From a virus (lineage: Duplodnaviria; Heunggongvirae; Uroviricota; Caudoviricetes), in IMG/VR virus record IMGVR_UViG_2778261571_000002, positions 1 to 12,378 of that record: a DNA stretch of 12,378 bases; one strand, given 5' to 3'. The stretch's first letter is position 1; each line of letters starts with the position of its first letter. The notes under the pieces are model-generated. The model saw only the letters and a program-made list of their open reading frames with translations. It made no database searches and was not told where the DNA came from. The position numbers were made by a program, and so were the translations under genes. Shown here in pieces: positions 1 through 12,378 of the stretch.

Positions 1-94
1 ATCCATCACCGTTGTTGCTCCCGGCAATAATGTCAGGGTGATTTCCGACTGCTTCTATCAGGTCGATGTTTCGCGTTGGTTTGAATGTAATCAT
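1..94 (-). CDS. gp14-like virion/ejection protein, N-terminal fragment only (continues beyond window start)
   Basis: ATG at 94..92 overlaps the gp26 TGA stop (ATGA), and the frame stays open to the window edge ([31 protein letters not shown]...). Position immediately after gp26 matches the P22 order 10-26-14. Call is by synteny only; too short for a family assignment. Confidence 0.4.
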   Translation of the reverse strand, partial: MITFKPTRNIDLIEAVGNHPDIIAGSNNGDG

Positions 95-795
95 CAGTCA
101 ATCAGCCCATGTAATCTAAGTGCTGTTTCAAGCGCCAGAATACGCTGCCGCGCCTGCTGCAAACCTGTAGCGAGAGCTGCGACTTCGGATTGTGTGTACG
201 TAGTGCCGACCGTGTATGACTGGTTAGCGTTGAATGAGCCAAGAAGTGGCGTACCTGTGGCTGCAGTCCATCCGGTATTTCTTGCTCCAACAACCTGAAT
301 TCCATCAACTGAATATGATGTTTTTACATCCAGCGGTGACTCAAGAGACTGCAATTCGGTTACGGTTTTCGATACGTAATCACTCTTAATGCCAGAGACA
401 TCGTTTTCTACGTCATCCAGTCTTTGGTCAACAGTGACCAGATGCGCCTGAATATCGATAACCTCATCCAGCAAGTAATCAACATCGCTACGCAGTACGA
501 CTATCTTCCCTTCGGCGGTTGTTAACCTGACCTCAAGGAGATTTATCGCTTTTGTGTTTGCGGTGATTCTTGCGTCGTGATCAGCCAGTTCGACGTCCTG
601 TTCATCGTTTTTTACCTGGGCATCGTAAGCGCCCTGACCAGCCTGATTTGCCTTCCCGGCAATTGCGCCGACATCAGCTCCCTGATTTATGACATACAGC
701 AGGTAAGACTGGCTGAATATATTGCGTGGCAAAATTGAAGCATCGAGGCGCGTAGCCTGAACCACGACAGGATCATTCAGTGATGAATCAACCAT
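94..795 (-). CDS. tail needle / cell-envelope-penetrating protein (P22 gp26-like), 233 aa
   Basis: The N-terminus ([25 protein letters not shown]...[31 protein letters not shown]) and the middle heptad-like coiled-coil segment match what I recall of P22 gp26. Length equals P22 gp26. Sits directly after gp10, as in P22-like podoviruses. Confidence 0.8.
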
Positions 796-1289
796 TACTC
801 AATCCTCTGCCTTGCAAACTCTCCAAAATTTTCTGCTCTTGCCATCATTGATGCTGAGATAGCTTCGTCCAGGTCATCGAAGCATCCAACGTGAACCTGT
901 TTTTTATTTTTCTTGAAAGAAACAGTCCACTTGCAGAGATTTTTGTGCCAACAGACACCAGGATATCCTGACTTATTATTTCTTTGAATATTCCTGTTCA
1001 TCCCATTCTGGGATCTATTTGCCAATCTTAAATTTGAAAATCTGTTATCCGTTCTGTCTCCGTTAATATGATCTATTAAGCAATTTGCAGGTTTTCCTGT
1101 CATATAAAACCAAGCAAGCCTATGCGCTAAGTATCTCTTACCACAGACCATTATCCTTAAATAACCAGTGCACATGGTTCCCGCTTCATCACCAACGGTG
1201 ACGCTCGCTGTATTTGATATTTTTCGGGTAAAAACCCCGGTTTCTGGGTCATATGATAAATGACGCTTCAACTCTTCATGTGAAATCAT
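795..1289 (-). CDS. HNH homing endonuclease with C-terminal AP2-type DNA-binding domain, 164 aa
   Basis: HNH motif ...[26 protein letters not shown]... followed by an AP2-like segment [37 protein letters not shown]. The gene is visibly more AT-rich than its neighbours. Start is 2 nt after the gp10 stop and the stop overlaps the gp26 ATG (TAATG). GGAG Shine-Dalgarno lies about 6 nt upstream. Confidence 0.85.
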
Positions 1290-1291
1290 TA

Positions 1292-2710
1292 TTACTCCAG
1301 CCTAATAGAGCAGCCTGAGAGAGTGACTGGTGACTTCGTAATAACGCGCAATTTGAAGCCGACATTTTTCCTGATGCGTCCGACACGCTTCCACAAAACG
1401 CGTTTGTCGTAAACGAACGGTTCATTCTGCTCAATCATCTGCTCACGTCCGTAATTGATGCCGTCAGTGGTTGCAGAGAGAAAAAGGCGGTCAGCATACT
1501 GCGCAACGCCAGTTGACGACTCAACTTCAAGGTCGAAAACTCTGGCGTTATCCGCTTTGAACAACGGAGTAAACAGCAGGTGCTCCTGCTGCTTGTCGTA
1601 CTGGCTGCTGATATCGAATTGCAGTTTCCCGGTCACGGATTCCAGCTTATCGCCGCACGTTATCTGATTGCCTTCGTAAATGAAGTCGATAGCGCGGTAC
1701 ACATCGTCATACAGGCCTGTTTTCAGTACACACCATTGCGGACCATTGGCGCTTGAAGATGCGTCGTACACCAGAACATGGCGCGGAAGATGGATAATCA
1801 GCAACTCATGCGCATCAAACCGCAGCGATTCCATCACGCCATCAGCCAGTTCATCAGCAGTGTAGGAGCGAAGAATTTTCTCAATGCTCGCGCTGGCGAT
1901 TGGTGACACCTGACCGGAGCCGATGATATACACAGACGGCGCACCTGTTGCCGGATTGCTGATGAATGCATACGAATCAGCAAACGGCGTTTTGCAGTAA
2001 GTCCCGGCAATACCTTTCTGCACCATCAGCGATGGCTGTGCGACATACAAAGCGGCACCAACAGTGGTTGCACCAGTCAGGGAGAAATATTCAATCGTCG
2101 ATGAACCAAAGCAGACGATGAAGTCTCGCCATGTGCCGATGCCGATGATGCCGTCCGGCTGCGATTCTGCGCGATATTGTGCGCTGTAACGGTCAGGATG
2201 CGATTCGTCTTCAAGGTCAGTGATAAACCATGAATCAGTTCCGTCTTTTGACCACGCATAACGCCCACGTAAGCGCGTAATGTCGCGGACTGAGCCTAAC
2301 TCATACTGAGTGAATCCGCTGTCTGTAGGCCAGTTTGAGACGGTTTTGACCGCGCCATCATAACGATACTCGACCAGTTGACCATTAACGCCTACCGCCT
2401 GTGATGTCCGCCCATGCGCCATTGATACGCGACCACTTCCGGCAACATCACCGACTTCGCTTTCGCCCTTATACAGCTTGCCACCACACACGCGATAAAC
2501 AGCATTCTGCGCCATGTTGTACTCGACGCCTCGAGATACACCGTTCACATCAGAACGTTTGGCAATGCCCGGGAATGAGCGAAGATATCCGCTGCTGTTC
2601 AGGATTTCTTTGGGTGTAGCCAACATATTCGCTGGCAGATAGTCGATATAGTCGGCGTTTCGAAAGTCTTTGCCGACACCTTTCATAAGCGGAAGTTGCT
2701 GAATCGGCAT
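1292..2710 (-). CDS. tail accessory factor / tail hub protein (P22 gp10-like), 472 aa
   Basis: Sequence agrees along its length with what I recall of P22 gp10 (MPIQQLPLMKGVGKDF...NMLATPKEILNSSGYLRSFPGI...VITKSPVTLSGCSIRLE), and the length is the same. Located between the gp4-like and gp26-like genes. Confidence 0.9.
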   Translation of the reverse strand: MPIQQLPLMKGVGKDFRNADYIDYLPANMLATPKEILNSSGYLRSFPGIAKRSDVNGVSRGVEYNMAQNAVYRVCGGKLYKGESEVGDVAGSGRVSMAHGRTSQAVGVNGQLVEYRYDGAVKTVSNWPTDSGFTQYELGSVRDITRLRGRYAWSKDGTDSWFITDLEDESHPDRYSAQYRAESQPDGIIGIGTWRDFIVCFGSSTIEYFSLTGATTVGAALYVAQPSLMVQKGIAGTYCKTPFADSYAFISNPATGAPSVYIIGSGQVSPIASASIEKILRSYTADELADGVMESLRFDAHELLIIHLPRHVLVYDASSSANGPQWCVLKTGLYDDVYRAIDFIYEGNQITCGDKLESVTGKLQFDISSQYDKQQEHLLFTPLFKADNARVFDLEVESSTGVAQYADRLFLSATTDGINYGREQMIEQNEPFVYDKRVLWKRVGRIRKNVGFKLRVITKSPVTLSGCSIRLE

Positions 2711-7847: not shown

Positions 7848-9263
7848 TCAACCTACACCACAAGGAATTGAGTAACTGGAATAGTCGGGTTGCGCAGCCG
7901 ACTCCGGGCAATGCATACACATCATCAGCGCATCAGCCAGGTTAGGAGATGGAATACCGAGCTTCTGCTTCATTTCGACCTTAGTCATAAGCTCCAGCTT
8001 CCCGTTATTATTGAATTTGCGCTGAATCTGCGTCAGTTCTGCAAACAGCTTCTCCAGCATCTTCTCGCCTATCGCTTCTTTGTCGAAACTCAGCATGTCG
8101 TCTGGGTCTGCATACTCACCGTGAACAACCGCCCGATATGTCAGATACAGCCTGTCAGCCAGCGCGTAATAGAATTGCGCTCGCTTATTGCGGAATACAT
8201 CGCCAATAGTGCGAACGTTGTCGCCCTGTACGACTTCATCAGCCCATGCTCCGGCCTGATATGGTGCATCTTCATCGAATGGCGATTCGCTGCCCTTGAA
8301 CATCGTGGCGGTGATTTTCTTGCCGGAGAACGCTTCCGTTGTCTGTCTGCGTAGCCCCGCACCGACGCCATCACCATCCCACAGGTAATGGTCAGCGCCG
8401 TCTTCAATCGCCAGCGAAGTAGCCCAGTCAGCACCCTCGTTGATGTCCATCAGCAGACCTTCGGCAATGCGCTTAACTACCGAACCGTGACGCGATGCGT
8501 AACCTTTAGCATCTGGCCCTGTGTCTGATGGGTCATGCGCAGAAACAACCGCACCCTTCGCTTTCCATCCGAGTTTCTTGTGCGCATCGGTTGCGGCTTC
8601 AAGCCATTCTCGTTTGATGATTGCCATATCACTTGCGCTTACCGGCTCACCAAGCCAGATGTGACGATACAGTGTCGGATTTCTGCGTTTACACTCTTCC
8701 ATCTCAAGACGGAGAACTTCAGGAAAATGTGGGTTGTCGGTGTAGTTCACCGTCAGCAGGCAAATATCATCGGGAGGATTTACAACGAATCGCTGATAGG
8801 TATCGTCGAGTATGTTCTTCGGGTTAAAGCTCACCCATATTTCAGAGAACGGCTTACGGATGGTCGGTATCAGGATATCCCATGATTCCTTCGTTACCGC
8901 TTCCGCTTCTTCCACCCAGCAGATATCAATGCCTTCGAGCGATTTAATCTTCGTCGGGTTGTTTTTGATGCCGTAGAACATGAATTCAGCATTTGTTCCG
9001 AGATGACGAATCATTGAACGCTGAATTTCAAACTCAGCCGAATACCCTTCACGCTCGATGGTATCTTCAAGCAACCGGATTACCGAATCGCTGATACTGT
9101 TTTGCAGTTCACGAGCGCAGAGAATACGCACAGGCTGCCGACGTGCCGCCTCAACAAGCAGCCTCGCAATTGCCCATGATTTACCGCTACCTCGACCGCC
9201 TTTGGCGACTTTGTAGCGATGCGCCTCAATGAACGGTTCAAAGATAGGATTAATCGAGGTCAT
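7848..9263 (-). CDS. terminase large subunit (ATPase/nuclease), 471 aa
   Basis: N-terminal Walker A motif VAKGGRGSGKSWA and a Walker B-like run ICWVEEAEA, with a C-terminal region consistent with the terminase nuclease domain. Start overlaps the small terminase stop (ATGA). Size matches Sf6-type TerL. Confidence 0.9.
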   Translation of the reverse strand: MTSINPIFEPFIEAHRYKVAKGGRGSGKSWAIARLLVEAARRQPVRILCARELQNSISDSVIRLLEDTIEREGYSAEFEIQRSMIRHLGTNAEFMFYGIKNNPTKIKSLEGIDICWVEEAEAVTKESWDILIPTIRKPFSEIWVSFNPKNILDDTYQRFVVNPPDDICLLTVNYTDNPHFPEVLRLEMEECKRRNPTLYRHIWLGEPVSASDMAIIKREWLEAATDAHKKLGWKAKGAVVSAHDPSDTGPDAKGYASRHGSVVKRIAEGLLMDINEGADWATSLAIEDGADHYLWDGDGVGAGLRRQTTEAFSGKKITATMFKGSESPFDEDAPYQAGAWADEVVQGDNVRTIGDVFRNKRAQFYYALADRLYLTYRAVVHGEYADPDDMLSFDKEAIGEKMLEKLFAELTQIQRKFNNNGKLELMTKVEMKQKLGIPSPNLADALMMCMHCPESAAQPDYSSYSIPCGVG

Positions 9264-9700
9264 TTTCCGAATAGAGTGCTCATCGGTGATGTTTCAATCT
9301 GGATTGCGCCGCCGTCTTTGCCTGTTAGTTCGTGATCAACCTTGTCGCGCCATTTATCCTTCTGTCGATTCTTAAGCCAGAAGATGGCAGCGGTTGTATC
9401 AGGCGGGTAATACTTCTCAAGCGGAGTTTCGACAATTCTGTTTTCAATAACACGAATATCGATGTCTGGAGCCACGAAGCCCATAGCGCGTTGATAAAGA
9501 CGATCACTAACTTCTGCATCAGCGACGGCCTTACCCTTTTTTATGGACTCCGAAAACTTAGGATAATCAAGCTTCCACTTGTTAATAGTTGACTCACTGA
9601 CTTCAAAGAAATCAGCAAGTTCTGCGTCTGTATAGCCCAGCAAGCACAGTTTGCGTGCCTGTTCGGCATACGCCTCTTGATACTTTGTTGGGCGCGCCAT
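9260..9700 (-). CDS. terminase small subunit (DNA-recognition subunit), 146 aa
   Basis: Immediately upstream of and overlapping TerL. N-terminal helix-turn-helix-like segment (YTDAELADFFEVSESTINKWK) and a C-terminal tail (...GKDGGAIQIETSPMSTLFGK) typical of the TerL-interacting end of P22/Sf6-type small terminases. Confidence 0.7.
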   Translation of the reverse strand: MARPTKYQEAYAEQARKLCLLGYTDAELADFFEVSESTINKWKLDYPKFSESIKKGKAVADAEVSDRLYQRAMGFVAPDIDIRVIENRIVETPLEKYYPPDTTAAIFWLKNRQKDKWRDKVDHELTGKDGGAIQIETSPMSTLFGK

Positions 9701-9702
9701 GT

Positions 9703-9945
9703 TTATGCTCCGGTAGTGAACAGGTCTAACGCTTCCTTCGATTTACGCACTGCTTCGAATGTGCGGATCGTGATATCCGAATTAGCGCCGCCTGACTGGA
9801 AGTGAATTTTGAATAGCTCAAGCTTCAGTTCGTCAGTGCCAATGAACTGAAATGCTTCCTCTGCGGCTGCGTTCTGGTTCATGACCAGCTTGTAAATCTC
9901 TAACTGGAATTTCTGTTCTTCAGTCATGGGAATAATCTCTGCCAT
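9703..9945 (-). CDS. hypothetical protein, 80 aa (P22 ORF80-like position just upstream of the small terminase)
   Basis: Stop lies 3 nt before the TerS start. Same strand and compact spacing. Size and position match the small ORF upstream of gene 3 in P22-like phages. No recognisable motif. Confidence 0.5.
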   Translation of the reverse strand: MAEIIPMTEEQKFQLEIYKLVMNQNAAAEEAFQFIGTDELKLELFKIHFQSGGANSDITIRTFEAVRKSKEALDLFTTGA

Positions 9946-10048
9946 TGTTGGCTCCGTTTATCCGTTAAAAGGGATATCAGTTAAGTTATCCCGTATAGGG
10001 TATAAGCCATTATCAAAGCCACTCTGTAGGGAATGGCTTTTGTAATAA

Positions 10049-10429
10049 CTACTGTTCGCTTAGCTTCTGCTTCAGCAAGTAACCTTCGAGCATCCAGATT
10101 TTGTTTACAGCATTTTGCCGGGCAATCTTCCGACCAATTTCTGCATCAAAGTTTTCCGGGCTTGCACAGGCGCTCTCTCCGGTGACGGTGAAGCCATTCT
10201 TCAGCACCAGTACGCAGAAAGTGAGCAACTTCAATGGTGATAAATCACGATCGCCTTCTTCTGGTTTTTCCCTGCCACAATATTCGTTGCTGGAAATGGC
10301 ACCATTTCGTCCATCATAAGCAGTAAAGTAATGCTCGCTTTTAATCACGTCTTCGATGTGCTGCGGGGTGATTCGCGGTGCCGTTTGGCCTTTCTCAACG
10401 ATTTCTTTTTCGATTTGCTGGTCGTTCAT
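10049..10429 (-). CDS. hypothetical phage protein, 126 aa (possibly N4 gp49 / Sf6 gene 66-like family; unverified)
   Basis: Clean ORF in the same orientation as the flanking late genes, with an AGGG-type RBS region upstream. Family assignment is a guess from position and size. Confidence 0.45.
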   Translation of the reverse strand: MNDQQIEKEIVEKGQTAPRITPQHIEDVIKSEHYFTAYDGRNGAISSNEYCGREKPEEGDRDLSPLKLLTFCVLVLKNGFTVTGESACASPENFDAEIGRKIARQNAVNKIWMLEGYLLKQKLSEQ

Positions 10430-10669
10430 AATTATGACCCTGTGGAGTGGTTGCTTGATTAGGATGTCTTTCCATCAGTCCGCCACCACAAAGAATCTTT
10501 TTTGCCATAAGGCAGGCGGTTCATCTTTCAGTGGCTGCCAGTGTTATTTCCCCACTTTCTGGCTTGGGTTGTTTCGCTGTACTGCCGTAACTGGTTGCCC
10601 AGAATAAATTCCGGTTTCATTATCAAGCCCACCCGTAGATAGGCTTTGTAATGGATAGCTGTTGCTCAG

Positions 10670-11239
10670 TTATCGTAATGCTTTGATTTTTCCGATAACG
10701 CAGTTTTGCGTTTGCCAACAGCACGCGATATCGAGAGTCAACTGCAGTTGCTCGCGCCAGTACTCAACATTTGCTTCAATAACCGGCTTATCCCATCGCC
10801 AGCGAGCCATCTCTCTTGCCCCATTGCTGGCTTTTGATTTCCGGTCATCGCGAATGCGACATGCTTGCTCATATTTCTGCTGCTCAGTCAGTTCACCGCG
10901 AAGCAGACTATCAATGTGCAGGTCGCACCACACAGCAAAACGAGCATCACACCAACGGGCAAATGCAACTGAAAGTTTTGGATGTAGCCACGTACCACCA
11001 CCCCTGTCCTTTCGTGCCTTGCTGGTTTTTACATACCTCGATTGTGAGGGATGTAAAATTTGAGATTCTTTCCCGGTCAACGCTTCGTCTAAAGCACGAA
11101 CGTATTCAAGCGTTTCTGCCAAACGCATCCAGTTATCAATGCGTTTCCCAAATCTCTCAGCAACACCTGTGACGTTGATCCAACCATCAGTGTTGAAACT
11201 GACAATTTCACCTTTGTAATTAAGTGGCACGATATTCAT
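10670..11239 (-). CDS. KilA-N domain-containing protein, 189 aa
   Basis: N-terminal region carries the characteristic KilA-N signature ...GGGTWLHPKLSVAFARWCDARFAVWCDLHIDSLL (compare the GTW[VI]HP.LA..FA.W consensus). AGGTAA RBS about 7 nt upstream of the ATG. Lies between the lysis cassette and the terminase, where P22-like phages carry rha/ORF201-type accessory genes. Confidence 0.6.
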   Translation of the reverse strand: MNIVPLNYKGEIVSFNTDGWINVTGVAERFGKRIDNWMRLAETLEYVRALDEALTGKESQILHPSQSRYVKTSKARKDRGGGTWLHPKLSVAFARWCDARFAVWCDLHIDSLLRGELTEQQKYEQACRIRDDRKSKASNGAREMARWRWDKPVIEANVEYWREQLQLTLDIACCWQTQNCVIGKIKALR

Positions 11240-11344
11240 AACGTTTACCTACCATTTGAAATGAACCTTTGCCGCATAGGAAACCAGCCCACCGAGGCTC
11301 GCCAGCACTAACTGGTATCCTCAAAGGCCCATTCCAAAGGGGCA

Positions 11345-11370
11345 GGTTCGGTGTAAAAAAACATGCGTTG
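11345..11370 (-). terminator. candidate rho-independent terminator (distal of a tandem pair downstream of Rz)
   Basis: Minus strand: AUGCGU-ACCGCA-ACGCAU hairpin (plus arms 11353..11358 and 11365..11370) followed by G and 7 U (plus A-run 11345..11351). The stem is short and AU-containing, so strength is moderate. Confidence 0.5.
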
Positions 11371-11375
11371 CGGTA

Positions 11376-11399
11376 CGCATTTATTGCAAAAAGCCCCGC
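11376..11399 (-). terminator. candidate rho-independent terminator about 40 nt downstream of Rz
   Basis: Minus strand: GCCUCGC-GAU-GCGGGGC (7-bp stem with one G-U pair; plus arms 11383..11389 and 11393..11399) followed by UUUUUGC (plus A-run 11378..11382). Confidence 0.55.
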
Positions 11400-11441
11400 A
11401 TCGCGAGGCTCATTAAATTGACTTTGTGATTTGCAAAAAAA

Positions 11442-11879
11442 TTATTTCAGGCATTGCGTCCTGATGTATTCCTGCAGGTAGTTAACCTGCGCGGTTATCC
11501 TGTCGATTCCACTTCGGAGACGGTAATAATTGAGTTCAGCATCTGCTGTAAGTCTTGGGCTTTCTCCATCGCCCATGCTGCTGGCTCCGGTCGTTGACTT
11601 TGCACAGGTGGCGGCGACTTGCAGGCGCTTACGCCCAGCAGAAACATCAGCACGGAGACTTTCGATAGTCGCGTTAGCATCAGCAAGCTCCTTTGTATAT
11701 CTGACATCGAGTTCTGCTACGTCACGTTGACGCTTCTGCATGTCAGCGATGATGTACGTGGCTTTATCGCGCTGTTCTTTATAGGTAATGGCGTTATCAC
11801 GGTAATGATTAACAGCCCATGACAGGCAGACGATGATGCAGATAACCAGAGCGGAGATAATCGCGGTTACTCTGCTCAT
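11442..11879 (-). CDS. Rz: Rz spanin, inner-membrane subunit (i-spanin), 145 aa
   Basis: N-terminal transmembrane segment [34 protein letters not shown] closely matches lambda Rz as I recall it, followed by a coiled-coil periplasmic domain. Start overlaps the R stop (ATGA). Confidence 0.9.
11495..11680 (-). CDS. Rz1: Rz1 spanin, outer-membrane lipoprotein subunit (o-spanin), embedded in the +1 frame of Rz
   Basis: Alternate-frame ORF wholly inside Rz. Signal peptide [19 protein letters not shown] with lipobox V-S-A-C, and a short proline-rich mature domain [17 protein letters not shown]..., as in lambda Rz1. Start taken at the Met before the hydrophobic core; the track ORF extends upstream to 11707. 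Confidence 0.75.
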
Positions 11880-12352
11880 ACCTCAATCTCTCTGACTGTT
11901 CCGCCAGCTTCTTTGAATTTTGCAATCAGGCTGTCAGCCTTATGCTCGAACTGGCCATAACCAGCCCCGGGCAACGAAGCCCAGATATTGCTGCAACGGT
12001 CGATTGCCTGACGAATATCACCGCGATCAATCATCGGCAAAGCGCCACGCTCTTTAATCTGTTGCAATGCCACAGCGTCCTGGCTTTTGGGAGAGAAGTC
12101 TTTCAGGCCAAGCTGCTTGCGGTAGGCATCCCACCAACGGGAAAGAAGCTGGTAGCGTCCGGCGGCTGTTGATTTGAGTTTTGGGTTTAGCGTGACAAGT
12201 TTGCGAGGGTGATCGGAGTAATCAGTGAATAGCTCTCCGCCAACAATGACGTCATAACCATGATTTCTGGTCTTCTGACGTCCGTTATCAGTTCCCTCTG
12301 ACCACGCCAGCATATCGAGGAACGCCTTACGTTGATTATTGATTTCCACCAT
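11876..12352 (-). CDS. R: endolysin, lambda R-type lytic transglycosylase, 158 aa
   Basis: Near-identical along its length to lambda R as I recall it ([51 protein letters not shown]...), including the catalytic Glu in the AWSEGTD motif. Confidence 0.95.
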
Positions 12353-12378
12353 CTTCTACTCCGGCTTTTTTAGCAGCG
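12336..12378 (-). CDS. S: holin S, C-terminal fragment only (gene continues beyond window end)
   Basis: Minus-strand frame reads ...[13 protein letters not shown] with TAA at 12338..12336, matching the lambda S C-terminus (...[13 protein letters not shown]). Overlaps the R start, as in lambda. Confidence 0.7.
   Translation of the reverse strand, partial: AAKKAGVEDGGNQ

What the first reader, a model, noticed from the sequence alone, without database searches (positions are those of the whole stretch)
9703..11441. Three-gene accessory island between the lysis cassette and the terminase, bounded upstream by tandem terminators
Between Rz and the small terminase sit three genes that are neither lysis nor morphogenesis: a KilA-N domain protein (189 aa), a 126-aa protein and an 80-aa protein. 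Two hairpin-plus-U-run structures precede them and a 240-bp non-coding gap lies inside the island. This boundary between lysis and packaging is a known variable slot in lambdoid/P22-like phages (rha/ORF201/ORF80 in P22; bor in lambda). KilA-N proteins are poorly characterised DNA-binding proteins, so this trio is the best candidate in the window for an uncharacterised host-interaction or regulatory function. I cannot assign any of them a function from sequence alone.
Basis: partly seen in the sequence, partly recalled or inferred. Interest (0 to 1): 0.5.

Follow-up and report, generated by a model that had tools for sequence, protein, structure and literature searches.

The report
Phage cargo slot with anti-CBASS sponge
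Between the lysis and DNA-packaging genes of this P22-like prophage sit two independently swappable cargo genes (a KilA-N DNA-binding protein and a member of the known Acb4 family of anti-immunity 'sponges') plus one fixed small gene of unknown role. This is ordinary phage mosaicism, apart from a well-supported RNA leader in front of the KilA-N gene that I could not find described.

Summary
Three minus-strand genes (189, 126 and 80 aa), two hairpin-plus-U structures and a 240-bp gap lie between Rz and the small terminase.

It is not one three-gene island but three separate modules.
- **The 126-aa protein** is 98% identical to Sf6 gp66 and belongs to Pfam PF13876. Since 2024 this family is known as Acb4, phage sponges that sequester CBASS cyclic dinucleotides. 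Its predicted fold matches only SPO1 Acb4 (PDB 9E4W). It is a clean cassette insertion, present in 20 of 74 related loci.
- **The KilA-N protein** shares a C-terminal module with Rha proteins. It occupies a position that relatives fill with Rha, T5orf172, Tad2-like or no gene.
- **DUF2560** is present in 74 of 74 related loci, always directly before the terminase. It is backbone, not cargo, and its function is unknown.
- **The 240-bp gap** is mostly a spacer shared by 163 phage records.

No promoter-like site lies on the coding strand, so late read-through is the likelier mode of expression.

Beyond the finding, a ~110-nt hairpin leader occludes the KilA-N ribosome-binding site. It recurs, with strong covariation, before Rha, KilA-N, T5orf172 and HNH genes, including phi80 rha. 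It has no Rfam match.

The parts
11391..11411 (-). t1: intrinsic-terminator-like hairpin (9 pairs, then U5 at 11392..11388), 33 nt after the Rz stop. Part of the backbone.
   Evidence: Fold -14.1 kcal/mol. Conserved in G749, HK544 and phiKp_30 whatever gene follows. The equivalent site is annotated as a rho-independent terminator in HK544 and phi80.
11355..11380 (-). t2: short hairpin (6 pairs) plus U7. It is the 5' end of the KilA-N cassette, not backbone.
   Evidence: Found by the scan; -6.9 kcal/mol. Relatives with other leader versions keep a short GC hairpin here but lack the U run.
11240..11348 (-). Structured leader: long imperfect hairpin whose base pairs ACCUGCC with GGUAGGU, the Shine-Dalgarno region of the KilA-N gene.
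   Evidence: -49.2 kcal/mol, z=-4.83, 0/200 shuffles. Covariance model R1, built without this version, matches 11348..11237 at 54.8 bits, E=1.2e-9. Covariation across 33 distinct copies. An in-frame TAG lies 4 codons before the ATG, so it is not a coding extension (read from the sequence). No Rfam match.
10670..11239 (-). KilA-N protein gene (189 aa here; 173 aa in relatives, because codon 174 is TGT here and TGA there). N-terminal KilA-N domain plus a C-terminal module shared with Rha proteins.
   Evidence: Pfam KilA-N 1e-21, residues 7-114. phrog_129 'transcriptional regulator' 3.6e-57; phrog_518 Rha-like 4e-9 on residues 118-171. Profile comparison with Rha proteins matches only residues 122-172 (prob 94.3%, E=9.8e-8). 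Stop-codon difference.
10463..10654 (-). Conserved backbone spacer, most of the '240-bp gap'. Begins with a hairpin (10646..10625, -13.5 kcal/mol) followed by GAUAAUG.
   Evidence: Present in 163 phage records, podoviruses and siphoviruses, with different flanking genes, and in 74/74 related loci. Frame-breaking 1-nt indels and a lost ATG among copies argue against a conserved ORF. In ST64T/L its 3' part is read as the N-terminus of orf118.
10007..10462 (-). acb4 cassette: 33-nt leader, CDS 10429..10049 (126 aa), then a hairpin (10040..10015, -13.3 kcal/mol) followed by GAUAAUGG.
   Evidence: Clean insertion relative to L017, L040 and ST64T. Left junction is GACATC|CTAATC at 10463|10462. The right side rejoins after a hairpin with 3 compensatory stem changes. 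Energies.
10049..10429 (-). acb4 homologue (Sf6 gp66 allele): predicted cyclic-dinucleotide sponge.
   Evidence: PF13876 120.8 bits against a cut-off of 27. 124/126 identical to Sf6 gp66. 45% identical to the N4 PF13876 protein. Profile against PDB: only 9E4W, E=1.3e-6. AlphaFold model pLDDT 91.7. Foldseek top 13 PDB hits are all 9E4W chains, next hit E=0.13.
9703..9945 (-). DUF2560 gene (80 aa, acidic, predicted all-helical), fixed backbone gene directly before the small terminase. Function unknown.
   Evidence: Pfam 2.6e-42. 74/74 related loci, constant spacing to the terminase ATG. Only 90 clusters in 5.8 billion proteins; every cluster that carries a source name is from Enterobacterales (Escherichia, Salmonella, Shimwellia, Serratia), most are unnamed. 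pI 4.7. Poor model and no fold match.
9260..9700 (-). Small terminase subunit (right-hand boundary). Its GGAG ribosome-binding site lies inside the end of the DUF2560 gene.
   Evidence: phrog_309 terminase small subunit 9.7e-68. Sequence read.

Best explanation
The stretch is the cargo zone at the end of the lysis genes in the late operon of a P22-like (Sf6/CUS-3-type) prophage. It is a conserved scaffold, Rz - t1 - spacer - DUF2560 - small terminase, with two insertion points, one on each side of the spacer.

**Position 1** holds a KilA-N cassette: short hairpin, long leader, then a gene with a KilA-N DNA-binding domain fused to the C-terminal module also found in Rha proteins. I infer a Rha-like DNA-binding regulator. 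Its translation is throttled because the leader buries the ribosome-binding site.

**Position 2** holds acb4. Its product most likely assembles into a tetramer that soaks up CBASS cyclic dinucleotides (3'3'-cGAMP, and probably c-di-AMP as in other Gram-negative phage homologues), so the CBASS effector is never triggered.

**DUF2560** is a fixed small acidic protein whose role is unknown.

**Expression.** All three are probably transcribed only as part of the Q-antiterminated late transcript that reads through t1 and t2.

**Shown:** gene identities, family and fold membership, cassette boundaries, distribution, RNA structure.
**Inferred:** ligand binding, tetramer, expression mode, what the KilA-N protein regulates.
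For: **Acb4**
- PF13876 at 120.8 bits. The family is defined as Acb4: all eight tested homologues bound 3'3'-cGAMP, and those from Gram-negative phages also bound c-di-AMP (bioRxiv 10.1101/2024.12.30.630793).
- N4 Acb4 binds c-di-AMP at 111 nM (bioRxiv 10.64898/2026.08.10.743972). The PF13876 protein found in N4 (only record positions 22000-46000 were inspected) is 45% identical to this one.
- Profile against PDB gives only 9E4W, E=1.3e-6. The high-confidence model matches only 9E4W.
- Stacking and hydrophobic ligand contacts are kept: F48->F80, F62->F94, I66->I98.

**Cassette structure:** alignments.

**Census:** Acb4 20/74, this KilA-N 7/74, Rha about 31-33/74, Tad2-like 5/74, DUF2560 74/74. 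E. coli genomes: 899, 527 and 155 of 5426 for DUF2560, acb4 and KilA-N.

**KilA-N / Rha relation:**

**Leader:**

**Expression:** no coding-strand promoter-like site.
Against: - No binding, oligomer or expression data exist for this allele.
- Several SPO1 ligand contacts differ here by sequence alignment: E49->T81, Y57->A89, T70->I102, K81->M113. Ligand preference may therefore differ.
- The protein has an N-terminal extension and a roughly 22-residue hypervariable insert absent from SPO1 Acb4.
- TM-scores to 9E4W are moderate (0.56-0.71 normalised to the target, rmsd 4-5 A).
- The promoter scan is a crude consensus search and cannot exclude weak or non-sigma-70 promoters.
- Late-operon timing for an anti-CBASS sponge is untested.
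- The KilA-N function is inferred from domain content only.
Confidence: 0.75

Rival explanations
1. The genes are morons: self-contained units with their own promoters, expressed from the repressed prophage to change the host (lysogenic conversion), like lambda bor or P22 pid.
For: Each unit ends in a hairpin. P22 pid, which lies in the same zone in P22 and BTP1, does have its own promoter and terminator (PMC8835761). Terminators upstream would insulate such units.
Against: No sigma-70-like site on the coding strand anywhere in 9200..12378. pid is on the opposite strand, whereas these genes are co-oriented with the late operon. The KilA-N ribosome-binding site is occluded. The acb4 cassette carries only 33 nt of leader.
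Confidence: 0.12
2. The 126-aa protein is an anti-CRISPR, as annotated for the 99% identical gene of phage Huey.
For: GenBank annotation 'anti-CRISPR protein' on Huey_CDS0066.
Against: That is an automatic label. The neighbouring Huey gene with the same label is a Tad2-like/DUF2829 protein. From my own knowledge, this family is linked to AcrIIA7, so the label probably spread from there. Sequence profile and fold both point only to Acb4.
Confidence: 0.04
3. The KilA-N protein is a defence or exclusion factor (BstA-like abortive infection), not a regulator.
For: Weak match of the KilA-N domain to a candidate defence protein, PADLOC PDC-S22, E=1.6e-5. From my own knowledge, BstA of the P22-like prophage BTP1 has an N-terminal KilA-N domain.
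Against: The match covers only the DNA-binding domain. The protein is 173-189 aa and carries the Rha-type C-terminal module instead of a BstA-type C-terminal half. It lies in the late operon behind terminators, not in a prophage-expressed region.
Confidence: 0.08
4. DUF2560, and possibly the whole stretch, is a core late function in packaging or assembly rather than cargo.
For: DUF2560 is present in 74/74 loci at a fixed distance from the terminase start, which overlaps its ribosome-binding site. It is also found before the packaging genes of P22/BTP1 and Sf6.
Against: For the other two genes, presence is 7/74 and 20/74. For DUF2560: the ST64T/L relative (orf118) sits three genes upstream of that terminase rather than next to it, although orf118 does still carry a DUF2560 domain. 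It has no similarity to any packaging protein. From my own knowledge, classical P22 genetics found no essential gene here.
Confidence: 0.2

Closest known systems
Acb4 (anti-CBASS 4) sponges: SPO1 Acb4 (PDB 9E4W), N4 Acb4, Sf6 gp66 (Pfam PF13876)
   Same: Same Pfam family well above threshold, same fold by Foldseek, phage-encoded, conserved ENFxxEIGR motif and stacking phenylalanines. 98% identical to Sf6 gp66 and 45% to the N4 protein.
   Different: 126 aa against 96 aa in SPO1. N-terminal extension and a hypervariable ~22-residue insert. Guanine-specific and phosphate contacts of SPO1 are not conserved. This allele has not been tested.
Rha of phi80 and P22 (ORF201)
   Same: Same position directly after Rz and a terminator. 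Same C-terminal module. Same structured leader.
   Different: The N-terminal DNA-binding domain is KilA-N (PF04383), not Phage_pRha (PF09669). The Rha phenotype (harmful to growth in IHF-deficient hosts, PMC4936722) has not been tested for KilA-N versions.
Ribosome-binding-site hairpins of T4-family homing endonuclease genes (I-TevI, mobE, segB)
   Same: [quoted passage not shown] Here the same leader also precedes HNH and T5orf172 genes.
   Different: Unrelated sequence. About 100 nt long with several helices. No internal promoter was found that would free the site. How translation would be released is unknown.
Tad2 / DUF2829 sponges
   Same: They occupy position 1 of the same slot in some relatives (5/74), are adjacent to acb4 in N4, and are fused to PF13876 in some proteins.
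   Different: Not present in this window.
Lambdoid morons (lambda bor, P22 pid)
   Same: Non-essential cargo inserted between late genes, bounded by hairpins, patchily distributed.
   Different: No own promoter detected. Co-oriented with the late operon.

Membership tests
Acb4 / PF13876 | Sequence match to the family profile above the curated threshold | tested here: met
   120.8 bits against a cut-off of 27, E=3.4e-35. The family is equated with Acb4 in bioRxiv 10.1101/2024.12.30.630793.
Acb4 / PF13876 | Fold of the protomer (three-stranded sheet flanked by helices, as in 9E4W) | tested here: met
   Model pLDDT 91.7. Top 13 PDB matches are all 9E4W chains, prob 1.00, TM 0.56-0.71 normalised to the target. 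The next hit has E=0.13.
Acb4 / PF13876 | Conservation of ligand-contact residues | tested here: inconclusive
   F48, F62 and I66 are kept. E49, Y57, T70 and K81 are replaced, by sequence alignment only.
Acb4 / PF13876 | Tetramer that binds CBASS cyclic dinucleotides at nanomolar affinity | not testable with these tools
   Needs a multimer model or biochemistry.
KilA-N domain proteins (PF04383) | N-terminal KilA-N domain above threshold | tested here: met
   77.2 bits against a cut-off of 23.8, residues 7-114. 47% identical to the HK97 KilA-N domain.
Rha family (PF09669 + ORF11CD3) | Phage_pRha N-terminal domain | tested here: not met
   No PF09669 match. Rha proteins of phiKp_30 and BTP1 do have it.
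Rha family (PF09669 + ORF11CD3) | ORF11CD3-type C-terminal module | tested here: met
   Pfam alone is below threshold (16 bits against 25). Support comes from phrog_518 at 4e-9 and a profile-profile match at prob 94.3%, E=9.8e-8.
Moron | Own promoter upstream of the gene | tested here: not met
   No promoter-like site on the minus strand in 9200..12378. This was a consensus scan only.
Moron | Own terminator downstream | tested here: inconclusive
   Stable hairpins follow both cassettes (-13.5 and -13.3 kcal/mol), but with a poor U tract (UUGAUAAUG).
Intrinsic terminators (t1, t2) | GC-rich hairpin followed by a U run | tested here: met
   t1 -14.1 kcal/mol with U5; t2 -6.9 kcal/mol with U7. 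Termination activity was not tested.
BstA-like abortive infection | KilA-N domain plus the long BstA C-terminal region (about 300 aa in all, from my own knowledge) | tested here: not met
   The protein is 173-189 aa with a Rha-type C-terminal module. Only a domain-level PADLOC match, E=1.6e-5.
Known RNA families (Rfam 15) | Match of the leader to any curated model | tested here: not met
   No match at E<=1 in 9000..12378.

The most novel reading that the evidence does not exclude
The ~110-nt leader before the KilA-N gene is an undescribed cis-acting RNA element of lambdoid phages. It is a long hairpin that hides the ribosome-binding site. It is shared by unrelated exchangeable genes (Rha, KilA-N, T5orf172, HNH-AP2), including the genetically defined phi80 rha gene. 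It could throttle translation of potentially harmful proteins. Release might come through RNase III cleavage, as at the lambda N leader (my inference). The leader could also serve as the 5' homology arm through which these cassettes are swapped.
Probability: 0.45. Interest if true: 0.55.

Novelty: new member of a known kind. Interest (0 to 1): 0.35.

Why it matters
**For the finding as given: modest.**
- An 'uncharacterised trio' becomes one probable anti-CBASS sponge, one Rha-like regulator and one fixed gene of unknown function.
- The P22-like lysis-to-terminase zone turns out to be a place where nucleotide-sponge counter-defence genes (Acb4, Tad2-like) accumulate.
- About 10% of complete E. 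coli genomes carry an acb4 of this type. That is relevant to predicting which prophages and phages evade CBASS, or trigger guard systems such as PanDA.

**The leader RNA is the one item that could open something.** It gives a concrete cis element to test for the old, unexplained Rha phenotype. It also suggests how lambdoid phages keep cargo genes quiet inside the late transcript.

Tried and rejected
- **Rfam scan** of 9000..12378 at E<=1: nothing.
- **NCBIfam:** no family for any of the three proteins.
- **PADLOC:** only a weak domain-level match for KilA-N.
- **PDB sequence search:** nothing credible for KilA-N or DUF2560.
- **DUF2560 structure:** low confidence (pLDDT 65.8). The fold search gave nothing below E=4.4, so I draw no conclusion from it.
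- **Small ORFs in the 240-bp gap** (30, 21 and 37 aa): rejected as genes. Copies differ by frame-breaking indels, and one has lost its ATG. ST64T orf118 is a deletion-generated fusion of spacer and DUF2560.
- **Plus-strand ORFs** overlapping the three genes: treated as spurious, because the minus-strand frames carry strong family matches.
- **RNAalifold on a plain MAFFT alignment of the leader:** recovered only 15 pairs because the arms were misaligned. I replaced it with a covariance-model alignment.
- **First profile comparison of KilA-N and Rha sets**: contaminated by a mis-sorted Rha sequence and discarded. The clean rerun is.
- **Structure-aware MAFFT modes:** not installed.
- **Henthorn & Friedman 1995 on rha:** could not be retrieved, so I cannot say whether the leader was noticed before.
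- **Identity of the pid terminator and the opposite-strand hairpin in the spacer:** considered and rejected on coordinates.
Full report
**Context.** All genes in the window run on the minus strand. In order they are: endolysin (12352..11876), Rz (11879..11442, with Rz1 embedded), the three genes in question, small terminase (9700..9260), large terminase, portal, scaffold and coat. DNA matches are to P22-like podoviruses (Sf6, CUS-3, phiKp_30) and, for parts, to HK97-like siphoviruses. The closest collinear relative among 5426 complete E. coli genomes is a prophage of strain G749, at 97.5% identity over 9200..11900. Only five genomes cover 80% or more of that stretch.

**Checking the observation.**
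- The three ORFs are at the stated coordinates and are real genes: KilA-N E=1e-21, Phage_gp49_66 E=3.4e-35, DUF2560 E=2.6e-42.
- The Rz-to-KilA-N gap holds two hairpin-plus-U structures.
  - t1: 11411..11391, -14.1 kcal/mol, U5.
  - t2: 11380..11363, -6.9 kcal/mol, U7.
- The number of terminator-like sites in the region is not above chance (6 found, 3.6 +/- 1.9 expected).
- t1 nevertheless sits where HK544 and phi80 annotators placed a terminator.
- The 240-bp gap exists.
- The 189-aa ORF is a read-through variant. Relatives stop at TGA after 173 codons; here that codon is TGT.

**The middle gene.**
- The 126-aa protein is 124/126 identical to Sf6 gp66, one of the two namesakes of Pfam PF13876.
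- Chang et al. (bioRxiv 10.1101/2024.12.30.630793) showed that SPO1 Acb4, a 96-aa tetrameric sponge that binds 3'3'-cGAMP at about 157 nM, founds this family. All eight homologues they tested bound 3'3'-cGAMP, and those from Gram-negative phages also bound c-di-AMP.
- A later preprint shows that N4 Acb4 binds c-di-AMP at 111 nM and thereby trips the PanDA guard system.
- The PF13876 protein I found in N4 (I inspected only record positions 22000-46000) is 45% identical to the window protein and lies next to a Tad2-like gene.
- A profile of 47 homologues hits only 9E4W in the PDB, at E=1.3e-6.
- The AlphaFold model is confident (pLDDT 91.7). Its top 13 PDB matches are all chains of 9E4W, and the next hit has E=0.13.
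- By sequence alignment, the stacking and hydrophobic ligand contacts are kept (F80, F94, I98). The guanine-reading Glu and some phosphate contacts are not (T81, A89, I102, M113). This fits a shifted ligand preference but proves nothing.
- The family is large: 5040 representatives at 50% clustering and 928 of 50,697 phage records.
- The middle of the gene (residues about 40-62) is hypervariable.

**The first gene.**
- The N-terminal 115 residues are a KilA-N domain, 47% identical to that of HK97.
- The C-terminal ~50 residues match the ORF11CD3 module that ends Rha proteins: phrog_518 4e-9, and a clean profile-profile match restricted to residues 122-172 with prob 94.3%, E=9.8e-8.
- Rha of phiKp_30 and BTP1 are Phage_pRha + ORF11CD3. 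The HK97 protein is KilA-N + P63C.
- At this position, then, different DNA-binding heads are joined to a common tail.
- phi80 rha, the gene whose product blocks growth in IHF-deficient hosts (PMC4936722), lies at exactly this place after Rz and a terminator.
- I therefore read the protein as a Rha-like DNA-binding regulator. That is an inference from domains and position.

**The third gene.**
- DUF2560 is a narrow family: 90 clusters among 5.8 billion proteins. Every cluster that carries a source name is from Enterobacterales (Escherichia, Salmonella, Shimwellia, Serratia); most are unnamed.
- The protein is acidic (pI 4.7) and predicted all-helical.
- The model is poor and has no fold match. 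Only two papers mention the family, neither functionally.

**Anatomy of the slot.** I fetched 80 IMG/VR loci whose small terminase is >=99% identical; 74 of them reach Rz.
- DUF2560 is present in 74/74, always at the same spacing from the terminase ATG.
- Acb4 is present in 20/74.
- The window-type KilA-N is present in 7/74.
- Rha types are present in about 31-33/74.
- A Tad2-like sponge (PF11195, 1.7e-24) is present in 5/74.
- A T5orf172 protein is present in about 12/74.
- pid is present in 1/74.
- The same trio is present in 3/74.
- There are 29 label patterns, and slot lengths run from 553 to 2130 bp.
- In E. coli genomes the three genes occur in 899, 527 and 155 of 5426.

Alignments show how the modules fit together.
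- t1 is shared whatever gene follows. t2, the leader and the KilA-N gene form one block.
- That block ends where a ~190-bp spacer begins.
- The spacer is found in 163 phage records, including P22, Sf6, HK97 and Stx phages.
- acb4 is a clean insertion at the distal end of the spacer (GACATC|CTAATC, 10463|10462).
- The sequence rejoins the common one after a hairpin whose stem differs from the uninserted version by three compensatory changes.
- Both cassettes end in similar hairpins, TACAAA(A)GCC...GGCTT(T)GATAATG.
- ST64T orf118 is the spacer's end fused by a deletion to DUF2560.

**Expression.** No sigma-70-like site lies on the coding strand in 9200..12378. Together with t1 and t2 upstream, this favours transcription only by antiterminated late RNA polymerase. 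The scan is crude and this remains an inference.

**The leader (beyond the original finding).**
- The 109 nt before the KilA-N ATG fold into one long hairpin (-49.2 kcal/mol, z=-4.83). Its base pairs ACCUGCC with GGUAGGU, the ribosome-binding site.
- An in-frame TAG four codons upstream rules out a coding extension.
- At least six versions, 60-80% identical, precede Rha, KilA-N and T5orf172 genes. All fold alike, and the base helix pairs (G/A)CCUUU with AAAGGU.
- A covariance model built only from four other versions finds the window copy at 54.8 bits (E=1.2e-9), HK97 at 38 bits, and 68 copies in 90 sources.
- On the 33 distinct copies, 89.7% of cells pair against 73.9% in shuffles (0/500).
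- 24 of 33 pairs show changes on both sides (shuffles 14.5).
- The covariation score is 0.430 against 0.183. Slid controls give 38-51% pairing.
- Caveat: the alignment was fitted to the model.
- Frequent conserved G-U pairs point to RNA on the coding strand rather than a DNA cruciform.
- Extra copies precede HNH-AP2 endonuclease genes elsewhere in some loci.
- phi80 has two copies: one ends at an in-frame ATG 36 nt inside the annotated rha, and one ends at the ATG of ORF x171.28.
- Hairpins that hide the ribosome-binding site are known for T4-family homing endonuclease genes (PMC3014915). I found no description of this element, but I could not read the 1995 rha paper.

**Verdict.** The most 'mysterious' gene belongs to a family whose function has since been worked out. 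The main finding is an ordinary mosaic cargo zone carrying a new member of a known counter-defence family. The leader RNA is the only part that may be new.

Noticed in passing
window 11240-11348 (-); also L091 (phi80) 43667-43777 and 45261-45354; L009 (HK97) 382-497: A conserved ~110-nt hairpin leader hides the ribosome-binding site of Rha, KilA-N, T5orf172 and HNH-AP2 genes in lambdoid phages. Covariation is strong (24/33 pairs with changes on both sides) and there is no Rfam match.
   Followed up: partly
window 10718-10720 (-): The KilA-N gene has TGT where relatives (G749, HK544) have the TGA stop. This extends the ORF by 16 codons into the spacer.
   Followed up: yes
window 10463-10654 (-): About 190 bp of the '240-bp gap' is a spacer shared at 89-98% identity by 163 phage records (P22, Sf6, CUS-3, epsilon34, HK97, HK106, Stx phages), whatever genes flank it. 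Its function is unknown. It carries a weak hairpin on the opposite strand (10502-10519), annotated as a terminator in phage L.
   Followed up: partly
window 10625-10646 and 10015-10040 (-): Two similar hairpins, TACAAA(A)GCC...GGCTT(T)GATAATG, close the two cassettes. The second differs from the uninserted version by three compensatory stem changes. They may be recombination handles or weak terminators.
   Followed up: partly
window 795-1289 (-): A 164-aa HNH_3 + AP2 homing-endonuclease-like gene is wedged between the gp10-like gene (1292..2710) and the next gene (94..795). The G749 relative has no gene there.
   Followed up: partly
window 10240-10310 (-), residues ~40-62 of the Acb4 homologue: The central segment of the gene is hypervariable in length and sequence across homologues, while both flanks are conserved. 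Many E. coli matches split into two pieces around it.
   Followed up: no
L090 (phage N4) 11633-12486; L006 (phage Huey) 382-1497; protein P0091: Acb4-family and Tad2-like (DUF2829) sponge genes are adjacent in N4, share the P22-like slot in Huey and in L026, and are fused in some proteins. The 'anti-CRISPR' labels in Huey look like annotation carry-over.
   Followed up: partly
L007 (ST64T) 1934-2290: ST64T/L orf118 is a DUF2560 protein whose first ~42 residues are encoded by the conserved spacer. The fusion was created by a ~39-bp deletion.
   Followed up: yes
L091 (phi80) 43739-44293: The annotated start of phi80 rha lies inside the leader hairpin. The conserved ATG with its ribosome-binding site is 36 nt downstream, in frame. 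The same applies to the 201-aa annotation of P22/BTP1 Rha.
   Followed up: partly
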